From UHGV virus genome UHGV-0116366: a stretch of 31,811 nt of DNA; one strand, written 5' to 3'. The notes below the pieces were generated by a model that was not told where the DNA came from, ran no database searches, and saw nothing but the letters and a program-made list of their open reading frames with translations. This stretch comes from a virus. Position 1 is the first letter of the stretch. Each line of letters begins with the position of its first letter. The translations under genes and the position numbers were made by a program. Below are positions 1 to 11,089 of the stretch, in pieces.

Positions 1-1
1 C

Positions 2-76
2 TTCGAACGTCTGATGGAAGGCGCTAAACTGCTGAAATGCAGCGAGTTTGGTGACGCGATCATCGAAAACATGTAA
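2..76 (+). CDS. icd: 3' end of isocitrate dehydrogenase gene (partial; window starts inside the gene)
   Basis: Frame beginning at nt 2 translates to FERLMEGAKLLKCSEFGDAIIENM followed by TAA; this matches my recollection of the enterobacterial Icd C-terminus (KCSEFGDAIIENM). icd is a known integration site for lambdoid prophages such as e14 and phage 21. Confidence 0.75.
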   Translation, partial: FERLMEGAKLLKCSEFGDAIIENM

Positions 77-101
77 TCTGCTTTCTTGATTGCAACTGAA
101 A

Positions 102-199: not shown

Positions 200-1036
200 A
201 TGATTCGTCTTTTAATGCTGATTAGTGCAGTATTTGGGATCGGCTATGGTTACGCGATAACGCATGATGTTTGGCCTTTTGAAGGTATGGATGCGAACCA
301 GCGAGGAGTTTTTGGCGACTCTTGGGGCGCTTTTACCTCAATCTTTTCTGCTATGGGGTTTTGTGGGGTTTTATGGACGATAAAGCTGCAGATGGATGCA
401 ACAAAAAAAATAGAGGATGATTTTAGGAAAAGGGAAGAAGCTGAAAAAATTAGGGATTTTGAGAACTCCTTCTTTAATATGTTGAGTATATTGCAAACAT
501 TAATTAAAGATATGAGGGTTGAAGGCTCTTCCGGGAAGACTTTGGCAGAAGGGCGTCATGTTTTTCTTTATTTTTTCAGACGATTCAAAAAAGAAGTTAG
601 ACAAAAAAATGGAATGTTATTAGATTATGACTCGAGTGATGAATCTGAAATTAAAAAAGCATCATCGAGAATGTCTAATGAATATAGGTTTTATTTCAGG
701 AATAGAGCTCAAAATTTATCTCATTACTTCAGATATATCTATAATATGTTTAAAATAATCCACGAATCTGATTTGTCTAACGTTAACAAGAAAAAATACG
801 CAAACATTTTACGCGCTCAACTTTCTAATTATGAGTTGCTAATGCTGTTTTATAATGCCAATTTCGTTCATGGTCAGAAATTTAAAGTATATATGAGCTT
901 GTATGCGATTCTGGATAATCTGCCAGCAGAGAAGCTTATAAATAAAAAACATGTTGCATTCTATGATAAAGAAGCGTGGGGTGATAATCTTGATGCATTA
1001 CAGTATCACCCCAAGTTTTTTGATTATGCAGATTAA
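200..1036 (+). CDS. AT-rich moron encoding a membrane-anchored protein; possible abortive-infection/exclusion (Abi-like) protein
   Basis: 278-aa ORF with hydrophobic N-terminal segments (LLMLISAVFGIGYGYAI, FTSIFSAMGFCGVLWTI) and a Lys/Asn/Tyr/Phe-rich soluble domain. Codon composition is much more AT-rich than flanking phage genes. It lies between the attachment-site gene (icd) and int, where e14 carries lit. Functional call is from memory of Abi-like families and is not verified. Confidence 0.55.
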   Translation: MIRLLMLISAVFGIGYGYAITHDVWPFEGMDANQRGVFGDSWGAFTSIFSAMGFCGVLWTIKLQMDATKKIEDDFRKREEAEKIRDFENSFFNMLSILQTLIKDMRVEGSSGKTLAEGRHVFLYFFRRFKKEVRQKNGMLLDYDSSDESEIKKASSRMSNEYRFYFRNRAQNLSHYFRYIYNMFKIIHESDLSNVNKKKYANILRAQLSNYELLMLFYNANFVHGQKFKVYMSLYAILDNLPAEKLINKKHVAFYDKEAWGDNLDALQYHPKFFDYAD

Positions 1037-2163
1037 TTATTAATAATTTTTATCCAATCCTTGCCTCTATCATCATGGTATCTGGCTGTTTGCTGGGGAG
1101 ATTTATGCCCCAGCAGTTTTTGAGTATTTACTCCCTGGTCTTCATACAGACGTTCTGCCAGAGAGCGCTGCTCGTGAAAAGTTGCAGGCGTGCCCTCACC
1201 CCATTCAATCTCTGCTTTATCCCGTGCTTTGCTGAAATTCATCGTAATGGTGTTGGACTTCACCTGCGCACCGCGCTCCGCCTGCGACGTTGCCCGAAAG
1301 AAGTGGATCATATACGGGCTGACTGCATAATCCCGACATCTGGCAACAACATCCCGAAGACACCAACCTATAGCATTAAGTCGCAGAGAAAGAGGGATTG
1401 CGATTTTGCTCCCGGTTTTTTCCTGAATGACATGGAGATGATCATCCCAAATATCGCTAAATTTCATTCGCGAGATATCACCTAACCGCTGGCCAGTCAC
1501 CAGTGCTAACAGCATAGCATTCCCCATATACTGATGTTTCTTATCCGCGATATCGAAAATCTTCTGCCACTCGTCGAGGCTAAGTCGTTGTCTGGTAATC
1601 TTGCGCCTGGGCTGTTTAGTAGCAAGGGCAGGGTTGTGACCAGACGGCACTTCACCGTAGTGTTGGGCCTCTTTGAATACATCGATCAGAACTGAGCGAA
1701 CAACTTGCGCCATTCTTGGTTGGCCTGCAGATAGATACTCTTCAAGAATTTGAGCAATATCCCTGACATCAACAGAAGATATGAGCTTCATTCCCGCACG
1801 TTCCTTAAGTAGTGCAACTGGCTTGGCTTTTTGTTTATATGTATTCTCCTTGATATCACCTGAAGCGAATCTTTCCTCTTGAATTTTCCAGTATCGCTCA
1901 AGCCAGGTAATAGTCGTAATTGCTTTACCCTTGCTGGCAGCGATTCGATCGCTAATAGCCAGTACCTGTCTTGAACGCTGCTCAGCAAGTCTTGCGTTTG
2001 CCTCAGTAGCAATTGCTCTAGCCTCAGCTTCATCAGTACCCAGGCTGTGAAATTTCCCAGTCATAGGGTGCTTGTACCGCCAATACACTTTATTGACCTT
2101 ACGACTGTATAGTGGATAGAGGTTAGGTATTGATACATTATTTTTACGTGGTCTCGCAGCCAT
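1033..2163 (-). CDS. int: tyrosine integrase, lambda Int family
   Basis: C-terminus LLGHKSPQQTARYHDDRGKDWIKI closely resembles the lambda Int catalytic-tyrosine region (LLGHKSDTMASQYRDDRGREWDKI). The ORF is open to 2229, but the ATG at 2163 (MAARPRK...) gives a lambda-like ~20-nt overlap with xis. Confidence 0.9.
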   Translation of the reverse strand: MAARPRKNNVSIPNLYPLYSRKVNKVYWRYKHPMTGKFHSLGTDEAEARAIATEANARLAEQRSRQVLAISDRIAASKGKAITTITWLERYWKIQEERFASGDIKENTYKQKAKPVALLKERAGMKLISSVDVRDIAQILEEYLSAGQPRMAQVVRSVLIDVFKEAQHYGEVPSGHNPALATKQPRRKITRQRLSLDEWQKIFDIADKKHQYMGNAMLLALVTGQRLGDISRMKFSDIWDDHLHVIQEKTGSKIAIPLSLRLNAIGWCLRDVVARCRDYAVSPYMIHFFRATSQAERGAQVKSNTITMNFSKARDKAEIEWGEGTPATFHEQRSLAERLYEDQGVNTQKLLGHKSPQQTARYHDDRGKDWIKIINN

Positions 2164-2389
2164 CGCTGAGGATCCTTTGTAATTTTGGTGAATCAGATTT
2201 CTTGATAACCGGCGCAGCAAGTTCTCCAACCAATTCCGCGTCCTCCCTAACTCTCCAGAGCCTACCTTGCTTCATTGCTGGCGGAGAAAAGAGATTTTGC
2301 TTAGCGTAACGGCGCAATGTAGAGACGCTAGGTGGATTACTTCTGTATTTATCGGTTGCCCATTCTTCAAGAGTTAACATCTGAATCAT
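2144..2389 (-). CDS. xis: excisionase (Xis-like DNA-binding protein)
   Basis: 81-aa basic protein immediately upstream of and overlapping int; MIQMLTLEEWA...RYAKQNLFSPPAMKQGRLW resembles lambda Xis (MYLTLQEWNARQ...). GGAG RBS upstream. Confidence 0.7.
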   Translation of the reverse strand: MIQMLTLEEWATDKYRSNPPSVSTLRRYAKQNLFSPPAMKQGRLWRVREDAELVGELAAPVIKKSDSPKLQRILSDGCETT

Positions 2390-2968
2390 GCGTTATTCTC
2401 CATATAACCCAGCTGCACCCGGGTTTTAACATCAACTATTCGTATGGTTCTCCGCTGCCGTGTATACCGCTACTTTCAGCAGATTGAATCAGTTAACTTT
2501 CCCTACGACCCACGGCTTAGAAGTCCGTTGCTCTCTTTAAGCTAACATCGCAACTGGAAGCGCGCTCCGGTAGTTTTGGATTAACGACTGACCATAAAGG
2601 TTAAGGGACAGAACGCGCTTTCATGTTGAGCCCTGAAAAAGGCTGGCGGTTACCGGACAAACGGGAAAACACCGGGCCGCCAGAACAGGGAAGTACTTGT
2701 TATTGCTTTGGCCTGCTTTTAACCACATCAGGCGCGGTGGTAGGTATCTTCGGGCGGGGCGCTGGGGACCAACCAGCTACAACCCCTACGGTATTTACAC
2801 TCCACGCCGTGGGTTAACGGCTCCGTATCGTGGCTGAGTTTCTGTTGCTGGTGGTCAAGCCAGCTTCGCAACCCCTCCCGAAGACACCTGTCAGCGAATC
2901 ATCCGGTCATTCATATGCCACCGGCGGCTACTTCGTGGGCGTCCTGCCTGTTCGCTGTTGATGAATAA

Positions 2969-2997
2969 AATCTAACTTAACTTAGCTTTTAGATCAA
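2969..2997 (-). promoter_or_regulatory. PL-like leftward promoter with overlapping operator
   Basis: On the minus strand: TTGATC - 17 nt - TAGATT. The 14-bp near-palindrome CTAACTTAACTTAG (2973-2986) lies in the spacer and matches the operator consensus found at OR. Confidence 0.45.
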
Positions 2998-3051
2998 GAA
3001 AAAACACCAAACTATTCTTAGCTTGATGTTAAGAGGAAGATTAGAGGTGGG

Positions 3052-3678
3052 TTAAAGCTCGTACTGAACGCCTTTGACAACGCCGATGATCAGGCAATTA
3101 CCGTTAATTGAAATGTTTGGATAGCGTGGATTTAAGGGAACTAAGAACTTTTGAGGCCCATCGATGACAAGTTTTTTTACAGTAGCCTCGTTTGTCCCAT
3201 CAAGCCTGGCTACGACTATCTTTCCATGAAGTGGCTCTGCATCTGGATCTACTATGACTGTTGCCCCTTCAGGGATTGTCGGGAGGCCATTAGGGTTTGT
3301 CATCGAATCACCTTTAACCTCCAATGCAAAGGAGCTATCCCCTATGCGGAGTGATGTCTCTATCCACTTATCTACTTCGCTGAAAACTTCTGCTGCTTTA
3401 CATTCTGTAAACTGTCCAGCCTGAACCCAGGATATCACCGGAATCCTTCGCATCTTGGTTATCAGATTGCCTTCAAATTCAGTGCCATAAAGTATGTAAT
3501 CAATTGATGTGTTGAAATACTTTGCAAGTTTCGCAAGTGACTCGCCTCCTGGCACATTAACGTCTTTTTCCCAATACCCAACCGCCACATCACTAACACC
3601 GCAGAACTTACCCAGTTCTTTCTGCGAGGTTTTGGTTATGCGCCTGAGAGCTTTGATGCGCTGACCGACAGTTTCCAT
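3052..3678 (-). CDS. cI: CI-type phage repressor (N-terminal HTH_XRE, C-terminal S24 LexA-like peptidase)
   Basis: N-terminus QRIKALRRITKTSQKELGKFCGVSDVAVGYWEKDVNVP (HTH). C-terminal domain has GDSM (Ser nucleophile) and VKK (Lys) as in LexA/CI autopeptidases. Divergent from cro. Confidence 0.9.
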   Translation of the reverse strand: METVGQRIKALRRITKTSQKELGKFCGVSDVAVGYWEKDVNVPGGESLAKLAKYFNTSIDYILYGTEFEGNLITKMRRIPVISWVQAGQFTECKAAEVFSEVDKWIETSLRIGDSSFALEVKGDSMTNPNGLPTIPEGATVIVDPDAEPLHGKIVVARLDGTNEATVKKLVIDGPQKFLVPLNPRYPNISINGNCLIIGVVKGVQYEL

Positions 3679-3780: not shown

Positions 3781-4008
3781 ATGACAACCGATGATATTGA
3801 AAACTACTTCGGCAGTACTGAGAAGGTTGCCGAATTTTTTGGAATCACAAGCGAGGCTGTTTACCAGTGGCGTAATAGAACTGGTCGCCTTATCCCAAAA
3901 GGGCGTGCAGCTGAAGCAGCATATCGAACCGGGGGGAAATTGGTTTTTCATCCCGACCTTTACGAAAAGCGTAGCGATGCTTCAGTAAAACTCAAACCAC
4001 AGGAATAA
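3781..4008 (+). CDS. cro: Cro-like repressor
   Basis: 75-aa protein divergent from cI with a strong RBS; FGSTEKVAEFFGITSEAVYQWRN resembles Cro/YdaS-type HTH. Confidence 0.75.
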   Translation: MTTDDIENYFGSTEKVAEFFGITSEAVYQWRNRTGRLIPKGRAAEAAYRTGGKLVFHPDLYEKRSDASVKLKPQE

Positions 4009-4018
4009 GGGGGGAGCT

Positions 4019-4570
4019 GTGGGTAACGAACCTATTTGGAAAGTCGAACGTCAGCCAGCCTGGCTGGTGGCGGCGATAAAAAAAACGATCACCGATCTTC
4101 CTGGTGGTTATGCCGAGGCGGCGGAATGGTTGGGCGTGACAGAGAACGCATTGTTCAACCGCCTTCGTGTTGACGGCGACCAAATCTTCCCGCTGGGCTG
4201 GGCAATGGTTTTACAACGTGCTGGTGGTTCAACTCATATTGCTGATGCCGTTGCGCGCCATTCTCAGGGCGTATTTGTACCGCTGGCAGACGTTGATGAT
4301 CTGGATAACGCCGATATAAACCAGCGCCTGATGGAGTCCATTGAATGGATAGGTCGTCATTCTAATTTTGTACGTAAAGCCACGGCTGATGGGGTAATTG
4401 ACGCAGATGAGCGTGCTCAGATTGAGGAAAACAGCTATCAGGTTATCGCGAAGTTCCAGGAGCACGTAACGCTTCTTTATCGAGTTTTTTGTGTCGCTGA
4501 AAAGAGTGACGCCCGCGAGTGTGCAGCTCCGGGCGCCTTGGCGAACAACTCTTCGAGTATGGAGAAATAA
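4019..4570 (+). CDS. CII-like regulatory protein (phage 186 CP76 type)
   Basis: 183-aa ORF directly after cro, GTG start. Length and position match the e14 ymfL / CP76 family; call is by recollection of the family, not alignment. Confidence 0.55.
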   Translation: MGNEPIWKVERQPAWLVAAIKKTITDLPGGYAEAAEWLGVTENALFNRLRVDGDQIFPLGWAMVLQRAGGSTHIADAVARHSQGVFVPLADVDDLDNADINQRLMESIEWIGRHSNFVRKATADGVIDADERAQIEENSYQVIAKFQEHVTLLYRVFCVAEKSDARECAAPGALANNSSSMEK

Positions 4571-5769: not shown

Positions 5770-6647
5770 CGTTAAACAAATATTGCCAGGCGCTGGCGGC
5801 ATTACGTAGCCAACCAGCCCACGAATTGAAAGAAGTTGGCGATCAGTGGCGGACGCCGGATCTGCTTTTTTGGGGGATCAACGCGCTATTTGGTCCATTA
5901 GTTCTGGACTTGTTTGCAGACGACGACAACGCGAAGTGCCCGGCATGGTACACCGCCGAAGATAACGCGCTGACACAGAACTGGTCTGAACGTCTGGATG
6001 AACTGGGCGGAGCGGCGTTTGCCAACCCTCCATATAGCCGCTCGCAGTATCACGACAGGCAGGCGATCACGGGTATGACACACATCATGAATCACACCAT
6101 GGACATGCGTGAAAGAGGTGGTCGCTATATTTACCTGGTGAAGTCTGCCACAAGTGAAACATGGTGGCCGGAAGATGCCGATCACATCATGTTTATTCGT
6201 GGTCGTATTGGGTTCGATCTGCCTGTGTGGTTTGTACCTGCTGACGAAAAACAGAAACCCACCAGCGCGTTTTTTGCCGGTGCCATAGCTGTATTCGATA
6301 AGTCATGGCGTGGTGAGCGGTTCAGCTATATCAACCGCACTGAGTTGGAGGCAAAAGGTCGGGCATTTATGGCGCTGGCTCAATTCGCTGTTGGTAAAGA
6401 GCAAACAATTGCAACGCTGGCAGCCCAGGAACCAGCAGCACCACCAAAAACTGAGTCACGAATCTGGCCTCTCGAAGTTGGTCTGGTGTTTAACCAAGTG
6501 GAAGGCGCTGATGTATTGAGCGAGGCCCAGCAGAACAAACTGAAAGCCAACATCAATCAACTCTGGCTGGAGCGGACGGCCACCAGCGAAATTATCGCAA
6601 TTGCGCGTGGCCTTGTTGGCAGCATGCAGGGGGTAACCCATGCGTGA
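5766..6647 (+). CDS. DNA N6-adenine methyltransferase (phage Dam-like) with C-terminal extension
   Basis: FANPPYS motif (NPPY catalytic motif of amino-MTases) in the N-terminal ~170 aa; C-terminal ~120 aa of unknown function. Confidence 0.75.
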   Translation: MTLNKYCQALAALRSQPAHELKEVGDQWRTPDLLFWGINALFGPLVLDLFADDDNAKCPAWYTAEDNALTQNWSERLDELGGAAFANPPYSRSQYHDRQAITGMTHIMNHTMDMRERGGRYIYLVKSATSETWWPEDADHIMFIRGRIGFDLPVWFVPADEKQKPTSAFFAGAIAVFDKSWRGERFSYINRTELEAKGRAFMALAQFAVGKEQTIATLAAQEPAAPPKTESRIWPLEVGLVFNQVEGADVLSEAQQNKLKANINQLWLERTATSEIIAIARGLVGSMQGVTHA

Positions 6648-10726: not shown

Positions 10727-11089
10727 ATGCGTGATATTCAGATGGTTTTAGAACGCTGGGGGGGCTGGGCATCAGCTGATAATTCTGGCGTTGACTATTC
10801 CCATATTGCCGCTGGCTTCAAGGGACTTTTACCGCAGACAAGCAAAACCAGGTTGTCATGTACAGATGATGATGCGCTTATCATTGAAAGTTGCCTAGCA
10901 CGACTGAAAAGCCGAAAGCCATATGAGCATTCGCTTCTTGTCGCTCACTACCTTTACGGTATCTCGAAGAGGAAGATAGCAAAAGCGCGAAAGAAGGATG
11001 AGAAACTGATACGCATCGAGATACAGATGGCTGAGGGGTTTATAGATGGTTGTCTCTCAATGCTTGATGTTCGTCTAGATATGGACTAA
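10727..11089 (+). CDS. late-gene antiterminator Q (phage 82 / QuuD type)
   Basis: 120-aa protein beginning MRDIQMVLERWGGWA, characteristic of the small Q antiterminator family; GGAG RBS; located upstream of the lysis genes. Confidence 0.7.
   Translation: MRDIQMVLERWGGWASADNSGVDYSHIAAGFKGLLPQTSKTRLSCTDDDALIIESCLARLKSRKPYEHSLLVAHYLYGISKRKIAKARKKDEKLIRIEIQMAEGFIDGCLSMLDVRLDMD

What the first reader, a model, noticed from the sequence alone, without database searches (positions are those of the whole stretch)
2390..2968. About 570 nt ORF-poor, GC-rich leader downstream of PL with no N-like gene
A sigma70-like leftward promoter with an embedded operator (2969-2997) points into a region with no ORF of 60 aa or more on either strand. 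My hand scan of the minus strand found only tiny ATG-initiated frames; the longest open stretch is 56 codons with no ATG (FADRCLREGLRSWLDHQQQKLSHDTEPLTHGVECKYRRGCSWLVPSAPPEDTYHRA). Lambdoid phages normally encode N, cIII, kil and recombination genes here. The phage has Q but no recognisable N, so this transcript could be a structured regulatory RNA (for example a put-like cis-antitermination RNA as in HK022), or encode a non-canonical small protein.
Basis: partly seen in the sequence, partly recalled or inferred. Interest (0 to 1): 0.6.

Follow-up and report, generated by a model that had tools for sequence, protein, structure and literature searches.

The report
Conserved structured RNA leader after PL
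The gene-less stretch after this prophage's leftward early promoter is a stack of conserved folded RNA modules plus a deletion scar. The first module is a widespread, unannotated 64-nt RNA that may help RNA polymerase read through terminators, although that function is untested.

Summary
The observation largely holds. Window 2390-2968 has no credible gene, and the phage (e14-like, inserted at icd) has Q but no N.

Read on the minus strand, the region is a mosaic:
- **PL with an operator:** 2997-2969.
- **Element A (2956-2893):** a 64-nt three-way-junction RNA starting about 7 nt after the predicted start site. It has strong covariation (94.9% of cells paired, against 20-41% in slid controls). 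It has no Rfam match. There is one copy per phage. It occurs in more than 240 viral contigs, in about 25% of complete E. coli genomes including K-12 e14, and in T5-like Providencia phages.
- **Module B (2889-2742):** a 148-nt folded RNA (z = -4.8) with a covarying loop-loop contact.
- **Terminator:** a conserved intrinsic terminator at 2683-2636.
- **Truncated tRNA-Arg(UCU):** 2551-2501, followed by a deletion scar. A relative carries about 4.3 kb of early genes at that point.

Element A is not a member of the HK022 put family; both sequence and architecture differ. My best reading, at about 40%, is a put-like, host-directed antitermination leader. The support is position, the terminator downstream, the absence of N, and frequent adjacency to rrn-type boxA. 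No experiment backs this.

The parts
2969..2997 (-). PL promoter: -35 TTGATC (2997-2992), 17-nt spacer, -10 TAGATT (2974-2969). The operator CTAAGTTAAGTTAG (2985-2972) overlaps it. The predicted start site is A2962.
   Evidence: Read from the sequence. The operator motif occurs 4 times against 0.16 expected. Relatives carry TTGACA-type promoters at the same place, and the gap from the -10 element to helix P1 is 12-15 nt in 77 of 116 good promoters. The cI terminator (3030-3003) abuts the -35 element.
2893..2956 (-). Element A, a 64-nt three-way-junction RNA. P1 pairs AGCGAA (2956-2951) with UUCGCU (2898-2893). P2 is GGC-AGGAC-GCC (2948-2938). The invariant linker is CACGAAGUAGCCG (2937-2925). 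P3 pairs CCGGU with ACCGG (2924-2920 with 2907-2903) around the loop GGCAUAUGAAUG. The 3' junction strand is AUGA (2902-2899).
   Evidence: On alignment A2 (112 sequences), 94.9% of cells are paired against 20-41% in slid controls, and 11 of 14 pairs change on both sides. RNAalifold finds the same helices on its own. Model R1 scores 95.5 bits here, and the next best hit in the window scores 15 bits. There is no Rfam match.
2742..2889 (-). Module B, a 148-nt multi-helix RNA. It is closed by an 18-bp outer helix (GGUGUCUUCGGG-AGGGG pairing with CCCC-G-CCCGAAGAUACC). A loop-loop ('kissing') contact joins GACCA (first hairpin loop) to UGGUC (last hairpin loop).
   Evidence: The minimum free energy is -74.3 kcal/mol against -54.0 +/- 4.2 for shuffles, z = -4.8. 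On alignment A3 (14 sequences), 97.5% of cells are paired against 32-48% in slid controls, and 10 pairs change on both sides. The loop-loop pair at columns 40/142 is U-A in 8 sequences and C-G in 6. B occurs either 8 nt after A or 145-282 nt after it, behind an ORF.
2636..2741 (-). Module C. It holds an intrinsic terminator with hairpin CUGGCGGCCCGG...CCGGUAACCGCCAG (2683-2643) and U-tract 2640-2636. In Nissle and strain 1943 prophages this module lies just before rdgC.
   Evidence: The hairpin is worth -18.0 kcal/mol. The same terminator type lies downstream of A in 37 of 178 distinct contexts and in none on the antisense strand. The stem changes in a compensated way in L016. Homology to the relatives is shown.
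2556..2623 (-). Spacer hairpin (GAAAGCGCG pairing with CGCGCUUCC). A related prophage carries such a unit on both sides of its tRNA-Arg.
   Evidence: Alignment and blastn against L254. I did not analyse it further.
2501..2551 (-). Truncated tRNA-Arg(UCU) pseudogene. The 5' acceptor strand, the D arm (with a 4-nt deletion), the anticodon arm and the start of the T stem remain. The T loop and the 3' acceptor strand are missing.
   Evidence: It is 79% identical to the intact tRNA-Arg(tct) of the E. coli PCP07014 prophage. ARAGORN finds no tRNA in the window. The Rfam tRNA model scores only 14.9 bits at 2478-2551.
2423..2500 (-). Junction, or deletion scar: 78 nt with no homologue in the relative, which holds about 4.26 kb of early-left genes at this point.
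   Evidence: Window 2422-482 is 97.3% identical to L254 10334-12274 (xis, int, abi). The tRNA matches L254 6001-6071. The genes in between are annotated. The 256-nt query covering this segment (window 2385-2640) found no match in the phage collection.
2390..2422 (-). The xis 5' untranslated region with its Shine-Dalgarno sequence (GGAG). The xis ATG is at 2389.
   Evidence: 97% identity to the xis upstream region of L254. Pfam Exc for 2144-2389.

Best explanation
The PL transcript begins with element A, a self-contained 64-nt three-way-junction RNA. I propose that A folds as it leaves RNA polymerase and binds a conserved host transcription component: RNA polymerase itself and/or the Nus factors. 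This would make the elongation complex resistant to termination.

The complex could then cross the roughly 570-nt untranslated leader, which is otherwise a target for Rho. It could also pass the intrinsic terminator at 2683-2636 and reach xis and int. In relatives it would reach the whole early-left operon.

This is a functional analogy to HK022 putL, not membership of that family. The steps stand as follows:
- **Shown:** the structure of A, its conservation, its placement at the 5' end, the terminator downstream, and the absence of N.
- **Inferred:** binding to the host machinery and antitermination.

The rest of the region has separate explanations. Module B is a second structured RNA of unknown role; it could be an RNase III processing site or a shield against Rho. 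The last roughly 190 nt are a tRNA-Arg remnant and a deletion scar that removed the early-left genes.
For: 1. **Real structured RNA.** A has three helices with compensatory changes. It is always in the sense orientation of the early-left operon in the annotated phages.
2. **Placement.** P1 starts about 5-9 nt after the predicted start site behind several unrelated promoter/operator types. The gap from the -10 element to P1 is 12-15 nt in 77 of 116 cases. putL is placed in the same way (PMC9378689).
3. **Conserved core, variable surroundings.** The unpaired nucleotides (CACGAAGUAGC, GGCRUAYGAA, GAUGA) are nearly invariant. The flanks, the neighbouring ORFs and the immunity regions all vary. The hosts span Escherichia, Salmonella, Yersinia, Pectobacterium, Pantoea, Xenorhabdus, Providencia and Aeromonas. 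This pattern points to a conserved host partner rather than a phage protein.
4. **A terminator follows.** A conserved, covarying intrinsic terminator lies between A and the operon. SfV's record annotates terminators in the same layout.
5. **No N in carriers.** The window has Q and no N. mEp237 has Q annotated and no N. Phage LLS is reported to lack N (PMC12315714). phi80, which has N and nutL, lacks A.
6. **Link to boxA.** A perfect rrn-type boxA (GCUCUUUAA) lies within 120 nt downstream of A in 22 of 178 distinct contexts, mostly at +28-29. In T5-like Providencia phages A is followed 8 nt later by boxA at the head of the pre-early operon, which is transcribed before the phage has made any protein of its own.
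Against: - No experiment addresses function.
- There is one copy per phage and none on the PR side. Both N/nut and put act on both early operons.
- A shows no sequence or architectural similarity to put.
- The thermodynamic stability of A alone is ordinary, z about 0. The same is true of putL.
- The window has no boxA, so any dependence on Nus factors is not general.
- My generic terminator count was not enriched on the sense strand. Only the specific CUGGCGG-type terminator was.
- The absence of N is hard to prove, because N proteins are small and diverse.
Confidence: 0.4

Rival explanations
1. Element A is a nut-like recognition site for a phage-encoded antiterminator or other RNA-binding protein made elsewhere in the genome. 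It would be the equivalent of boxB, often paired with boxA.
For: A lies next to boxA in 22 of 178 contexts, and next to a hairpin plus boxA in the strain 1943 type. The mEp collection is described as Nus-dependent (PMC11893012), and mEp237 and mEp460_4F5 both carry A. Most lambdoid carriers share a CII/YmfL-like gene after cro.
Against: The ORFs next to A differ between phages: ClpX zinc-finger-like, SfV orf33, kil, or none. There is no second site on the PR side. A heads the pre-early operon of T5-like phages, which lack the lambdoid regulators and where no phage protein yet exists. The near-invariance of A across very different phages fits a host partner better.
Confidence: 0.15
2. A (with or without B) is an early-expressed RNA that acts in trans after release from the leader. 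Possible roles are a decoy, a sponge or an anti-defence RNA aimed at a host factor. B's long outer helix would serve as the RNase III cleavage site that frees it.
For: A is at the very start of the earliest transcripts in two unrelated phage lifestyles, lambdoid PL and the T5-like pre-early region. From general knowledge, both regions are rich in host-takeover functions. B has an 18-bp outer helix directly after A in 25 contexts. PL to the terminator would give a discrete RNA of about 320 nt in the window.
Against: A never occurs as a free-standing gene with its own terminator. It is always fused to the 5' end of an operon, and what follows it is highly variable. No target is known. boxA adjacency points to transcription elongation.
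Confidence: 0.15
3. A is a 5'-terminal stabiliser or processing signal. It would protect the early-left mRNA from RppH- or RNase E-dependent decay starting at the 5' end, or tune translation of the first ORF.
For: A has a constant position a few nucleotides from the 5' end. In K-12 e14, A ends 27 nt before the ymfJ ATG. In several contigs a Shine-Dalgarno sequence and ATG follow within 10-30 nt.
Against: A simple protective hairpin would not need about 30 nearly invariant unpaired nucleotides and a three-way junction. The distance to the first ORF ranges from about 10 nt to more than 500 nt.
Confidence: 0.12
4. A is a riboswitch aptamer that senses a small molecule and gates early-left transcription.
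For: A compact three-way junction with invariant junction and loop nucleotides is typical of aptamers.
Against: No conserved expression platform follows P1; the downstream sequence changes immediately. There is no Rfam riboswitch match even at E = 10.
Confidence: 0.05
5. The region encodes a non-canonical small protein: the 56-codon minus-strand frame or the 64-aa plus-strand ORF.
For: The open frames exist.
Against: Neither has a Pfam match. Homologues of this stretch differ by indels of 1, 2 and 4 nt, and their substitutions preserve base pairs rather than codons. The minus-strand frame has no ATG.
Confidence: 0.02

Closest known systems
HK022 / HK639 put RNAs (putL, putR): cis-acting, factor-independent processive antiterminator RNAs
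   Same: Both are about 65-70 nt. Both are encoded immediately downstream of PL in a lambdoid phage that has Q but no N. Both are followed by terminators, are self-contained, and occur in Enterobacterales phages. Neither folds more stably than its shuffles (PMC9378689).
   Different: There is no sequence similarity. The covariance model of A misses the HK022 locus. A is a three-way junction, whereas put is two tandem stem-loops with a triple helix. There is one copy of A per phage, whereas put has an L and an R copy. A is often followed by boxA, and A also occurs in T5-like phages. The activity of A is untested.
lambda-type nut sites and the rrn leader (boxA/boxB/boxC, Nus-factor antitermination)
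   Same: The position in the early leader is the same. In 22 of 178 contexts, A is followed by an rrn-consensus boxA. In the strain 1943 type the order is hairpin then boxA, as in rrn operons.
   Different: A is much larger and more complex than a boxB hairpin. No N-like protein is encoded next to it. The window's own leader has no boxA. There is no PR-side copy.
The lambda N-leader RNase III site (a large hairpin between nutL and N)
   Same: Module B is a long, stable helix-closed structure in the PL leader, downstream of the antitermination-site position. This comparison rests on my own knowledge of lambda.
   Different: B has a branched interior and a covarying loop-loop contact. It has two interior types. 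No cleavage data exist, and B shows no sequence similarity to anything annotated.
EAR (eps-associated RNA) of Bacillus, another RNA element tied to processive antitermination
   Same: Both are structured cis RNAs placed within an operon and proposed to make RNA polymerase resistant to terminators. This comparison rests on my own knowledge.
   Different: The phylum, size and fold are all unrelated. EAR is in Rfam, and it did not match the window.

Membership tests
HK022-type put antiterminator RNA | Sequence or profile similarity to putL/putR of HK022, HK75, O276, HK639 or phiEt88 | tested here: not met
   blastn of the window leader against the HK022 PL region finds only chance words. Model R1 finds nothing in the HK022 locus L004 at E < 0.01. 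A putL query finds 24 phage records, none of which carries A.
HK022-type put antiterminator RNA | Two adjacent stem-loops (stem I with a triple helix, stem II about 14 bp) | tested here: not met
   Both covariation and RNAalifold give a three-way junction, P1 enclosing P2 and P3. The put architecture is taken from PMC9378689.
HK022-type put antiterminator RNA | Two sites per phage, one after PL and one after PR | tested here: not met
   There is one R1 hit in the window and one across 22 kb of mEp237. Every other locus with a hit has one, apart from a second, P2-less copy in L222.
HK022-type put antiterminator RNA | [quoted passage not shown] | tested here: met
   P1 starts about 7 nt after the predicted start site. 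Q is present and no N was found among the predicted early proteins scanned.
HK022-type put antiterminator RNA | Suppresses termination and pausing by binding the beta' zinc-binding domain, without protein factors | not testable with these tools
   This needs in vitro transcription, rpoC (Y75N-type) genetics or cryo-EM.
lambda/rrn nut site | boxA consensus (CGCUCUUA / GCUCUUUAACAA) in the leader | tested here: not met
   The window leader has no boxA. The only near match is at 6391-6402 on the wrong strand, and the count is no higher than chance. boxA is present in a subset of relatives.
lambda/rrn nut site | A cognate N-like arginine-rich protein encoded downstream | tested here: not met
   The window has no ORF between PL and xis. 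Pfam finds no N among the predicted early proteins scanned.
Any Rfam 15 family | Score at or above the family's gathering threshold | tested here: not met
   There are no matches at the gathering thresholds over the whole window. At E <= 10 over 2100-3200 there is only noise plus the 14.9-bit tRNA remnant.
tRNA (for 2501-2551) | Complete cloverleaf detected by ARAGORN or the Rfam tRNA model | tested here: not met
   ARAGORN finds none and Rfam scores 14.9 bits against a threshold of 29. The intact homologue in L254 is called tRNA-Arg(tct). The window copy is therefore a pseudogene.

The most novel reading that the evidence does not exclude
Element A would be a new structural class of host-directed, cis-acting antiterminator RNA, only the second such phage RNA after put. 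It would be far more widespread than put: about a quarter of complete E. coli genomes, many Enterobacterales prophages, and T5-like virulent phages. It would work alone or together with boxA/Nus. Module B would be a second, previously undescribed large structured RNA with a loop-loop tertiary contact.
Probability: 0.3. Interest if true: 0.85.

Novelty: new variant of a known kind. Interest (0 to 1): 0.68.

Why it matters
RNA-only control of transcription elongation is known in phages from essentially one family, put of HK022/HK639. How the many lambdoid phages without N express their early operons remains open. The LLS genome paper, for example, can only guess at 'a put RNA-mediated mechanism' (PMC12315714).

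Element A is a concrete, testable candidate:
- It has a defined 64-nt fold and clear mutational targets.
- Copies exist in tractable strains: K-12 e14 upstream of ymfJ, Nissle 1917, Salmonella ST64B and Shigella SfV.
- Its link to boxA suggests a bridge between put-like and Nus-dependent mechanisms.

Whatever its function, A and B are abundant structured RNAs that genome annotation and Rfam currently miss.

Tried and rejected
- **Rfam:** scans at the gathering thresholds and at E <= 10 found nothing relevant.
- **Similarity to HK022 putL:** blastn found none.
- **King et al. 2011 (HK639 put RNAs) and Mehta et al. 2004 (e14):** neither paper is held, so I compared against the phage records directly.
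- **Literature search for the motif strings:** only unrelated primer sequences came up.
- **AgvB/AsxR anti-sRNAs of EHEC prophages:** these lie at the PR' moron site and are 51-60 nt sRNAs with their own terminators, so they are not this element.
- **phi80 'M3 RNA' idea:** phi80 has N and nutL and no element A.
- **Hammerhead-like reading of the junction (GAUGA, CGAAG):** rejected by inspection. The junction strands are 2, 13 and 4 nt, whereas a hammerhead has 7, 3 and 1.
- **RfaH ops-like GGCGG(C)TA:** it lies on the template strand, so I rejected it.
- **A 7-codon mini-ORF inside A (AUGAAUGACCGGAUGAUUCGCUGA):** it is not conserved in ZF40, AH07 or SPN3UB.
- **Generic terminator census:** my detector was too permissive, giving 2.4 per 1.5 kb on the sense strand and 4.4 on the antisense strand. 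I discarded it in favour of the specific CUGGCGG-type count. The first version of that script crashed.
- **14-mer scan of genome contigs:** most hits were chance matches in GC-rich genomes. Only Enterobacterales hits passed the covariance model.
- **Second (PR-side) copy:** none was found.

Full report
**Setting.** The window starts with the last 24 codons of icd ([24 protein letters not shown]). It then runs through an AbiC-like gene (200-1036, plus strand), a lambda-type integrase (1033-2163, minus strand) and an excisionase (2144-2389, minus strand). After the gap under study come these genes:
- an S24/HTH repressor (3052-3678, minus strand);
- a P22-type Cro (3781-4008);
- a CII/CP76-like gene (4019-4570);
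- replication, Dam, Dcm, RusA and antirepressor genes and a DUF968 gene;
- a Q antiterminator (10727-11089).

This is the layout of the K-12 cryptic prophage e14, which also sits at icd. The window shares 70-84% identity with e14 over icd', int-xis, element A and ymfL. No N-like protein was found among the predicted early proteins scanned.

**Check of the observation.** The gap has no credible gene.
It has no ATG and no Pfam match, and it lies over a structured RNA whose homologues differ by 1-, 2- and 4-nt indels.
It also has no family match.
- PL is a moderate promoter, TTGATC-17-TAGATT at 2997-2969.
- The operator motif CTAAGN5TTAG occurs at 2972-2985 and at two sites between cI and cro. 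That is 4 matches counting both strands, against 0.16 expected.
- GC content is 52.8% against 50.1% for the window. Only the two structured modules reach 59%.

**Element A: discovery and spread.** I aligned the PL-proximal sequence with three relatives that carry different immunity regions: E. coli 1943, Nissle 1917 and Salmonella ST64B. A block of about 65 nt is nearly identical in all four, while the promoter upstream and the sequence downstream differ.

- blastn found the block in ST64B, SfII, SfIV, SfV, ZF40, AH07, YeP1-3, phiNP, SPN3UB, mEp237, mEp460, SEN34, Klebsiella phages and Aeromonas pAEv1818. It also found it in the T5-like Providencia phages PSTCR5 and PR1.
- In every annotated lambdoid case it lies just beyond the 3' end of the repressor gene or immunity module, in the sense orientation of the early-left operon.
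- In the T5-like phages it heads the pre-early operon that encodes the A2/A1-like and dmp genes.

**Element A: structure.**
- A 112-sequence alignment (A2) supports a three-way junction.
- P1 covaries widely: AGCGAA/UUCGCU, GUCAUC/GAUGAC, ACCACC/GGUGGU and AGGAAC/GUUCCU.
- P2 is GGC/GCC around a variable purine-rich loop.
- P3 also covaries: CCGGU/ACCGG, CUACC/GGUAG, CCUGG/CCAGG, CCCGA/UCGGG and CCGAC/GUCGG.
- Overall, 94.9% of cells are paired against 20-41% when partners are slid. Eleven of 14 pairs change on both sides, and 0 of 500 shuffles reach the observed score.
- RNAalifold finds the same helices without guidance.
- The linker CACGAAGUAGC, the P3 loop GGCRUAYGAA and the 3' strand GAUGA are almost invariant.

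**Element A: searches with the covariance model R1.**
- The window scores 95.5 bits at 2960-2891, and the next best hit scores 15 bits.
- Every fetched viral or phage locus with a hit has one, except L222. L222 has a second copy that lacks P2.
- The HK022 locus gives no hit, and neither does phi80.
- Among genome hits, only Enterobacterales pass the model: Xenorhabdus, Photorhabdus, Yersinia, Serratia, Rouxiella, Pantoea, Kosakonia, Kluyvera, Leclercia, Enterobacter, Phytobacter, Scandinavium and E. coli.
- megablast finds A in 1382 of 5426 complete E. coli genomes, and PGAP annotates nothing there.
- K-12 e14 carries a slightly degenerate copy (71.5 bits) between ymfK and ymfJ, 27 nt before the ymfJ ATG. 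ymfJ is induced late in the SOS response (PMC11002266).
- Rfam 15 has no matching family, and the motif strings do not appear in the searchable literature.

**Element A: position and neighbours.**
- Behind several different promoter/operator types, the gap from the -10 element to P1 is 12-15 nt in 77 of 116 well-scoring promoters. A is therefore the first thing transcribed.
- What follows A is modular:
  - Module B follows in 32 of 178 distinct contexts.
  - An rrn-consensus boxA lies within 120 nt in 22 of 178, usually at +28-29 and preceded by a small hairpin. In the T5-like phages it lies at +7, and their operon holds three boxA copies.
  - Other contexts have a ClpX zinc-finger-like ORF, SfV orf33-like ORFs, or a conserved 'UUAACGCGCAGCAGG...' module.
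- A CUGGCGG...CCGCCAG terminator with a U-tract lies downstream in 37 of 178 contexts and in none on the antisense strand. Its stem changes in a compensated way in L016.
- In the window this terminator is at 2683-2636 and is worth -18 kcal/mol.

**Module B.**
- Window 2889-2742 folds at -74.3 kcal/mol, against -54.0 +/- 4.2 for shuffles (z = -4.8).
- Fourteen homologues keep an 18-bp outer helix and several inner hairpins.
- A loop-loop contact changes in a compensated way: GACCA/UGGUC in some sequences and GACUA/UAGUC in others. The pair at columns 40/142 is U-A in 8 sequences and C-G in 6.
- Overall, 97.5% of cells are paired against 32-48% in slid controls, and 10 pairs change on both sides.
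- B can be separated from A by an ORF, so it is an independent module.
- A second interior type shares the same outer helix.
- Its role is unknown. An RNase III site like the one in the lambda N leader, or a structure that keeps Rho off a long untranslated RNA, are reasonable guesses only.

**The xis-proximal third.**
- Window 2568-2502 is 79% identical to a stretch of the E. coli PCP07014 prophage that holds an intact tRNA-Arg(UCU).
- The window copy keeps the 5' acceptor strand, a D arm with a 4-nt deletion, the anticodon arm and the start of the T stem. It then breaks off. ARAGORN and Rfam both reject it as a tRNA.
- In that relative, about 4.26 kb of early-left genes lie between the tRNA and xis. 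They include a ParB-like gene, DUF4752, ead/Ea22 and a dcm pseudogene.
- From 33 nt upstream of xis onwards, the two sequences are 97.3% identical.
- So 2500-2423 is a deletion or recombination scar.
- This explains why PL here leads almost directly to xis-int. It does not touch the PL-proximal 330 nt, which is non-coding in all relatives.

**Interpretation.** I separate 'works like' from 'is a member of'.

Membership fails on every testable criterion except location: sequence or profile, architecture and copy number.

'Works like' remains the best-supported reading, for six reasons:
- The element is self-contained and sits at the very 5' end.
- Its invariant single-stranded nucleotides, set against variable phage contexts and varied hosts, imply a conserved host partner.
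- A conserved terminator and, in this window, a 570-nt untranslated stretch lie between it and the genes.
- Carriers lack N, and an N-bearing phage lacks the element.
- A is repeatedly coupled to boxA, the one host signal known to assemble termination-resistant complexes.
- It heads an operon in T5-like phages that must be read by unmodified host polymerase.

Three points weigh against this reading: the single copy, the lack of any experiment, and the fact that other 5'-leader functions fit much of the same evidence. Those alternatives are a trans-acting early RNA, a stabiliser, and a protein-binding site. I put the antitermination reading at about 0.4.

**Verdict.** It comprises two unannotated structured RNA families, a terminator and a tRNA/deletion scar. 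It is a new structural variant of a known kind of element, a phage early-leader regulatory RNA. It is not a member of the put family, and its function is unproven.

Noticed in passing
window 2742-2889 (minus strand): Module B is a second structured RNA with no Rfam match. It is 148 nt long, has z = -4.8, and has a covarying loop-loop contact. Two interior types share one outer helix, and it can sit apart from element A.
   Followed up: yes
window 2501-2551 and 2423-2500 (minus strand): A truncated tRNA-Arg(UCU) pseudogene is followed by a 78-nt junction. The related E. coli PCP07014 prophage has an intact tRNA and about 4.26 kb of early-left genes at this point.
   Followed up: yes
L132 3558-3566, 4006-4014, 4415-4423; L133 5058, 5506, 5916 (Providencia phages PSTCR5 and PR1): Three perfect rrn-type boxA sequences (GCUCUUUAA) lie in the pre-early (first-step-transfer) operon of these T5-like phages. 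The first is 8 nt after element A and the others are in intergenic gaps. This suggests Nus-factor antitermination of pre-early transcription.
   Followed up: partly
L001 4938-4975 and about 20 IMG/VR loci (for example L026, L030, L062, L064): Element A is followed by a small hairpin (AAGCGCC..GGACGCUU) and then GCUCUUUAACAA. This is the boxB-then-boxA order of ribosomal RNA operons, placed in a prophage PL leader.
   Followed up: partly
L377 6611-6681 (E. coli K-12 MG1655, about 1,202,110-1,202,180, minus strand): The cryptic prophage e14 carries a slightly degenerate copy of element A in the ymfK-ymfJ intergenic region. One P1 pair is mismatched and the P3 loop is altered. It offers a handy experimental handle.
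   Followed up: partly
L222 981-1037 (minus strand): A second, shorter copy of element A lacks helix P2 and the CACGA part of the linker. It lies about 600 nt downstream of a full copy on the same strand.
   Followed up: no
L055/L056 about 2089-2159 and L184 7763-7831: These copies of element A are chimeric. Their 5' and 3' P1 halves come from different subtypes, so P1 cannot pair. They look like recombination breakpoints inside the element.
   Followed up: no
L129 3560-3620, L130 3560-3620 and many IMG/VR loci; also upstream of A in L009 and L017: A further conserved non-coding module (..UUAACGCGCAGCAGGU..AACGUUCCGCUGGCCGGCGAUAAGG..) accompanies the SPN3UB/mEp237 subtype of element A. Its role is unknown.
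   Followed up: no
window 2556-2623 (minus strand); L254 about 5950-6017 and 6190-6280: A hairpin unit of about 70 nt (GAAAGCGCG...CGCGCUUCC) is repeated on both sides of the prophage tRNA-Arg in the relative. The window has one copy.
   Followed up: no
window 1-78, 200-1036: The prophage is inserted at the 3' end of icd, as e14 is, and carries its own replacement icd end (78% identical to K-12). Next to it lies an AbiC-like abortive-infection gene.
   Followed up: partly
L003 4190-4555 and about 35 IMG/VR loci (for example L013, L008, L022): The commonest first ORF after element A is a small ClpX C4 zinc-finger-like protein (MN.YFTCSFCG...). Its function in the early-left operon is unknown.
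   Followed up: no
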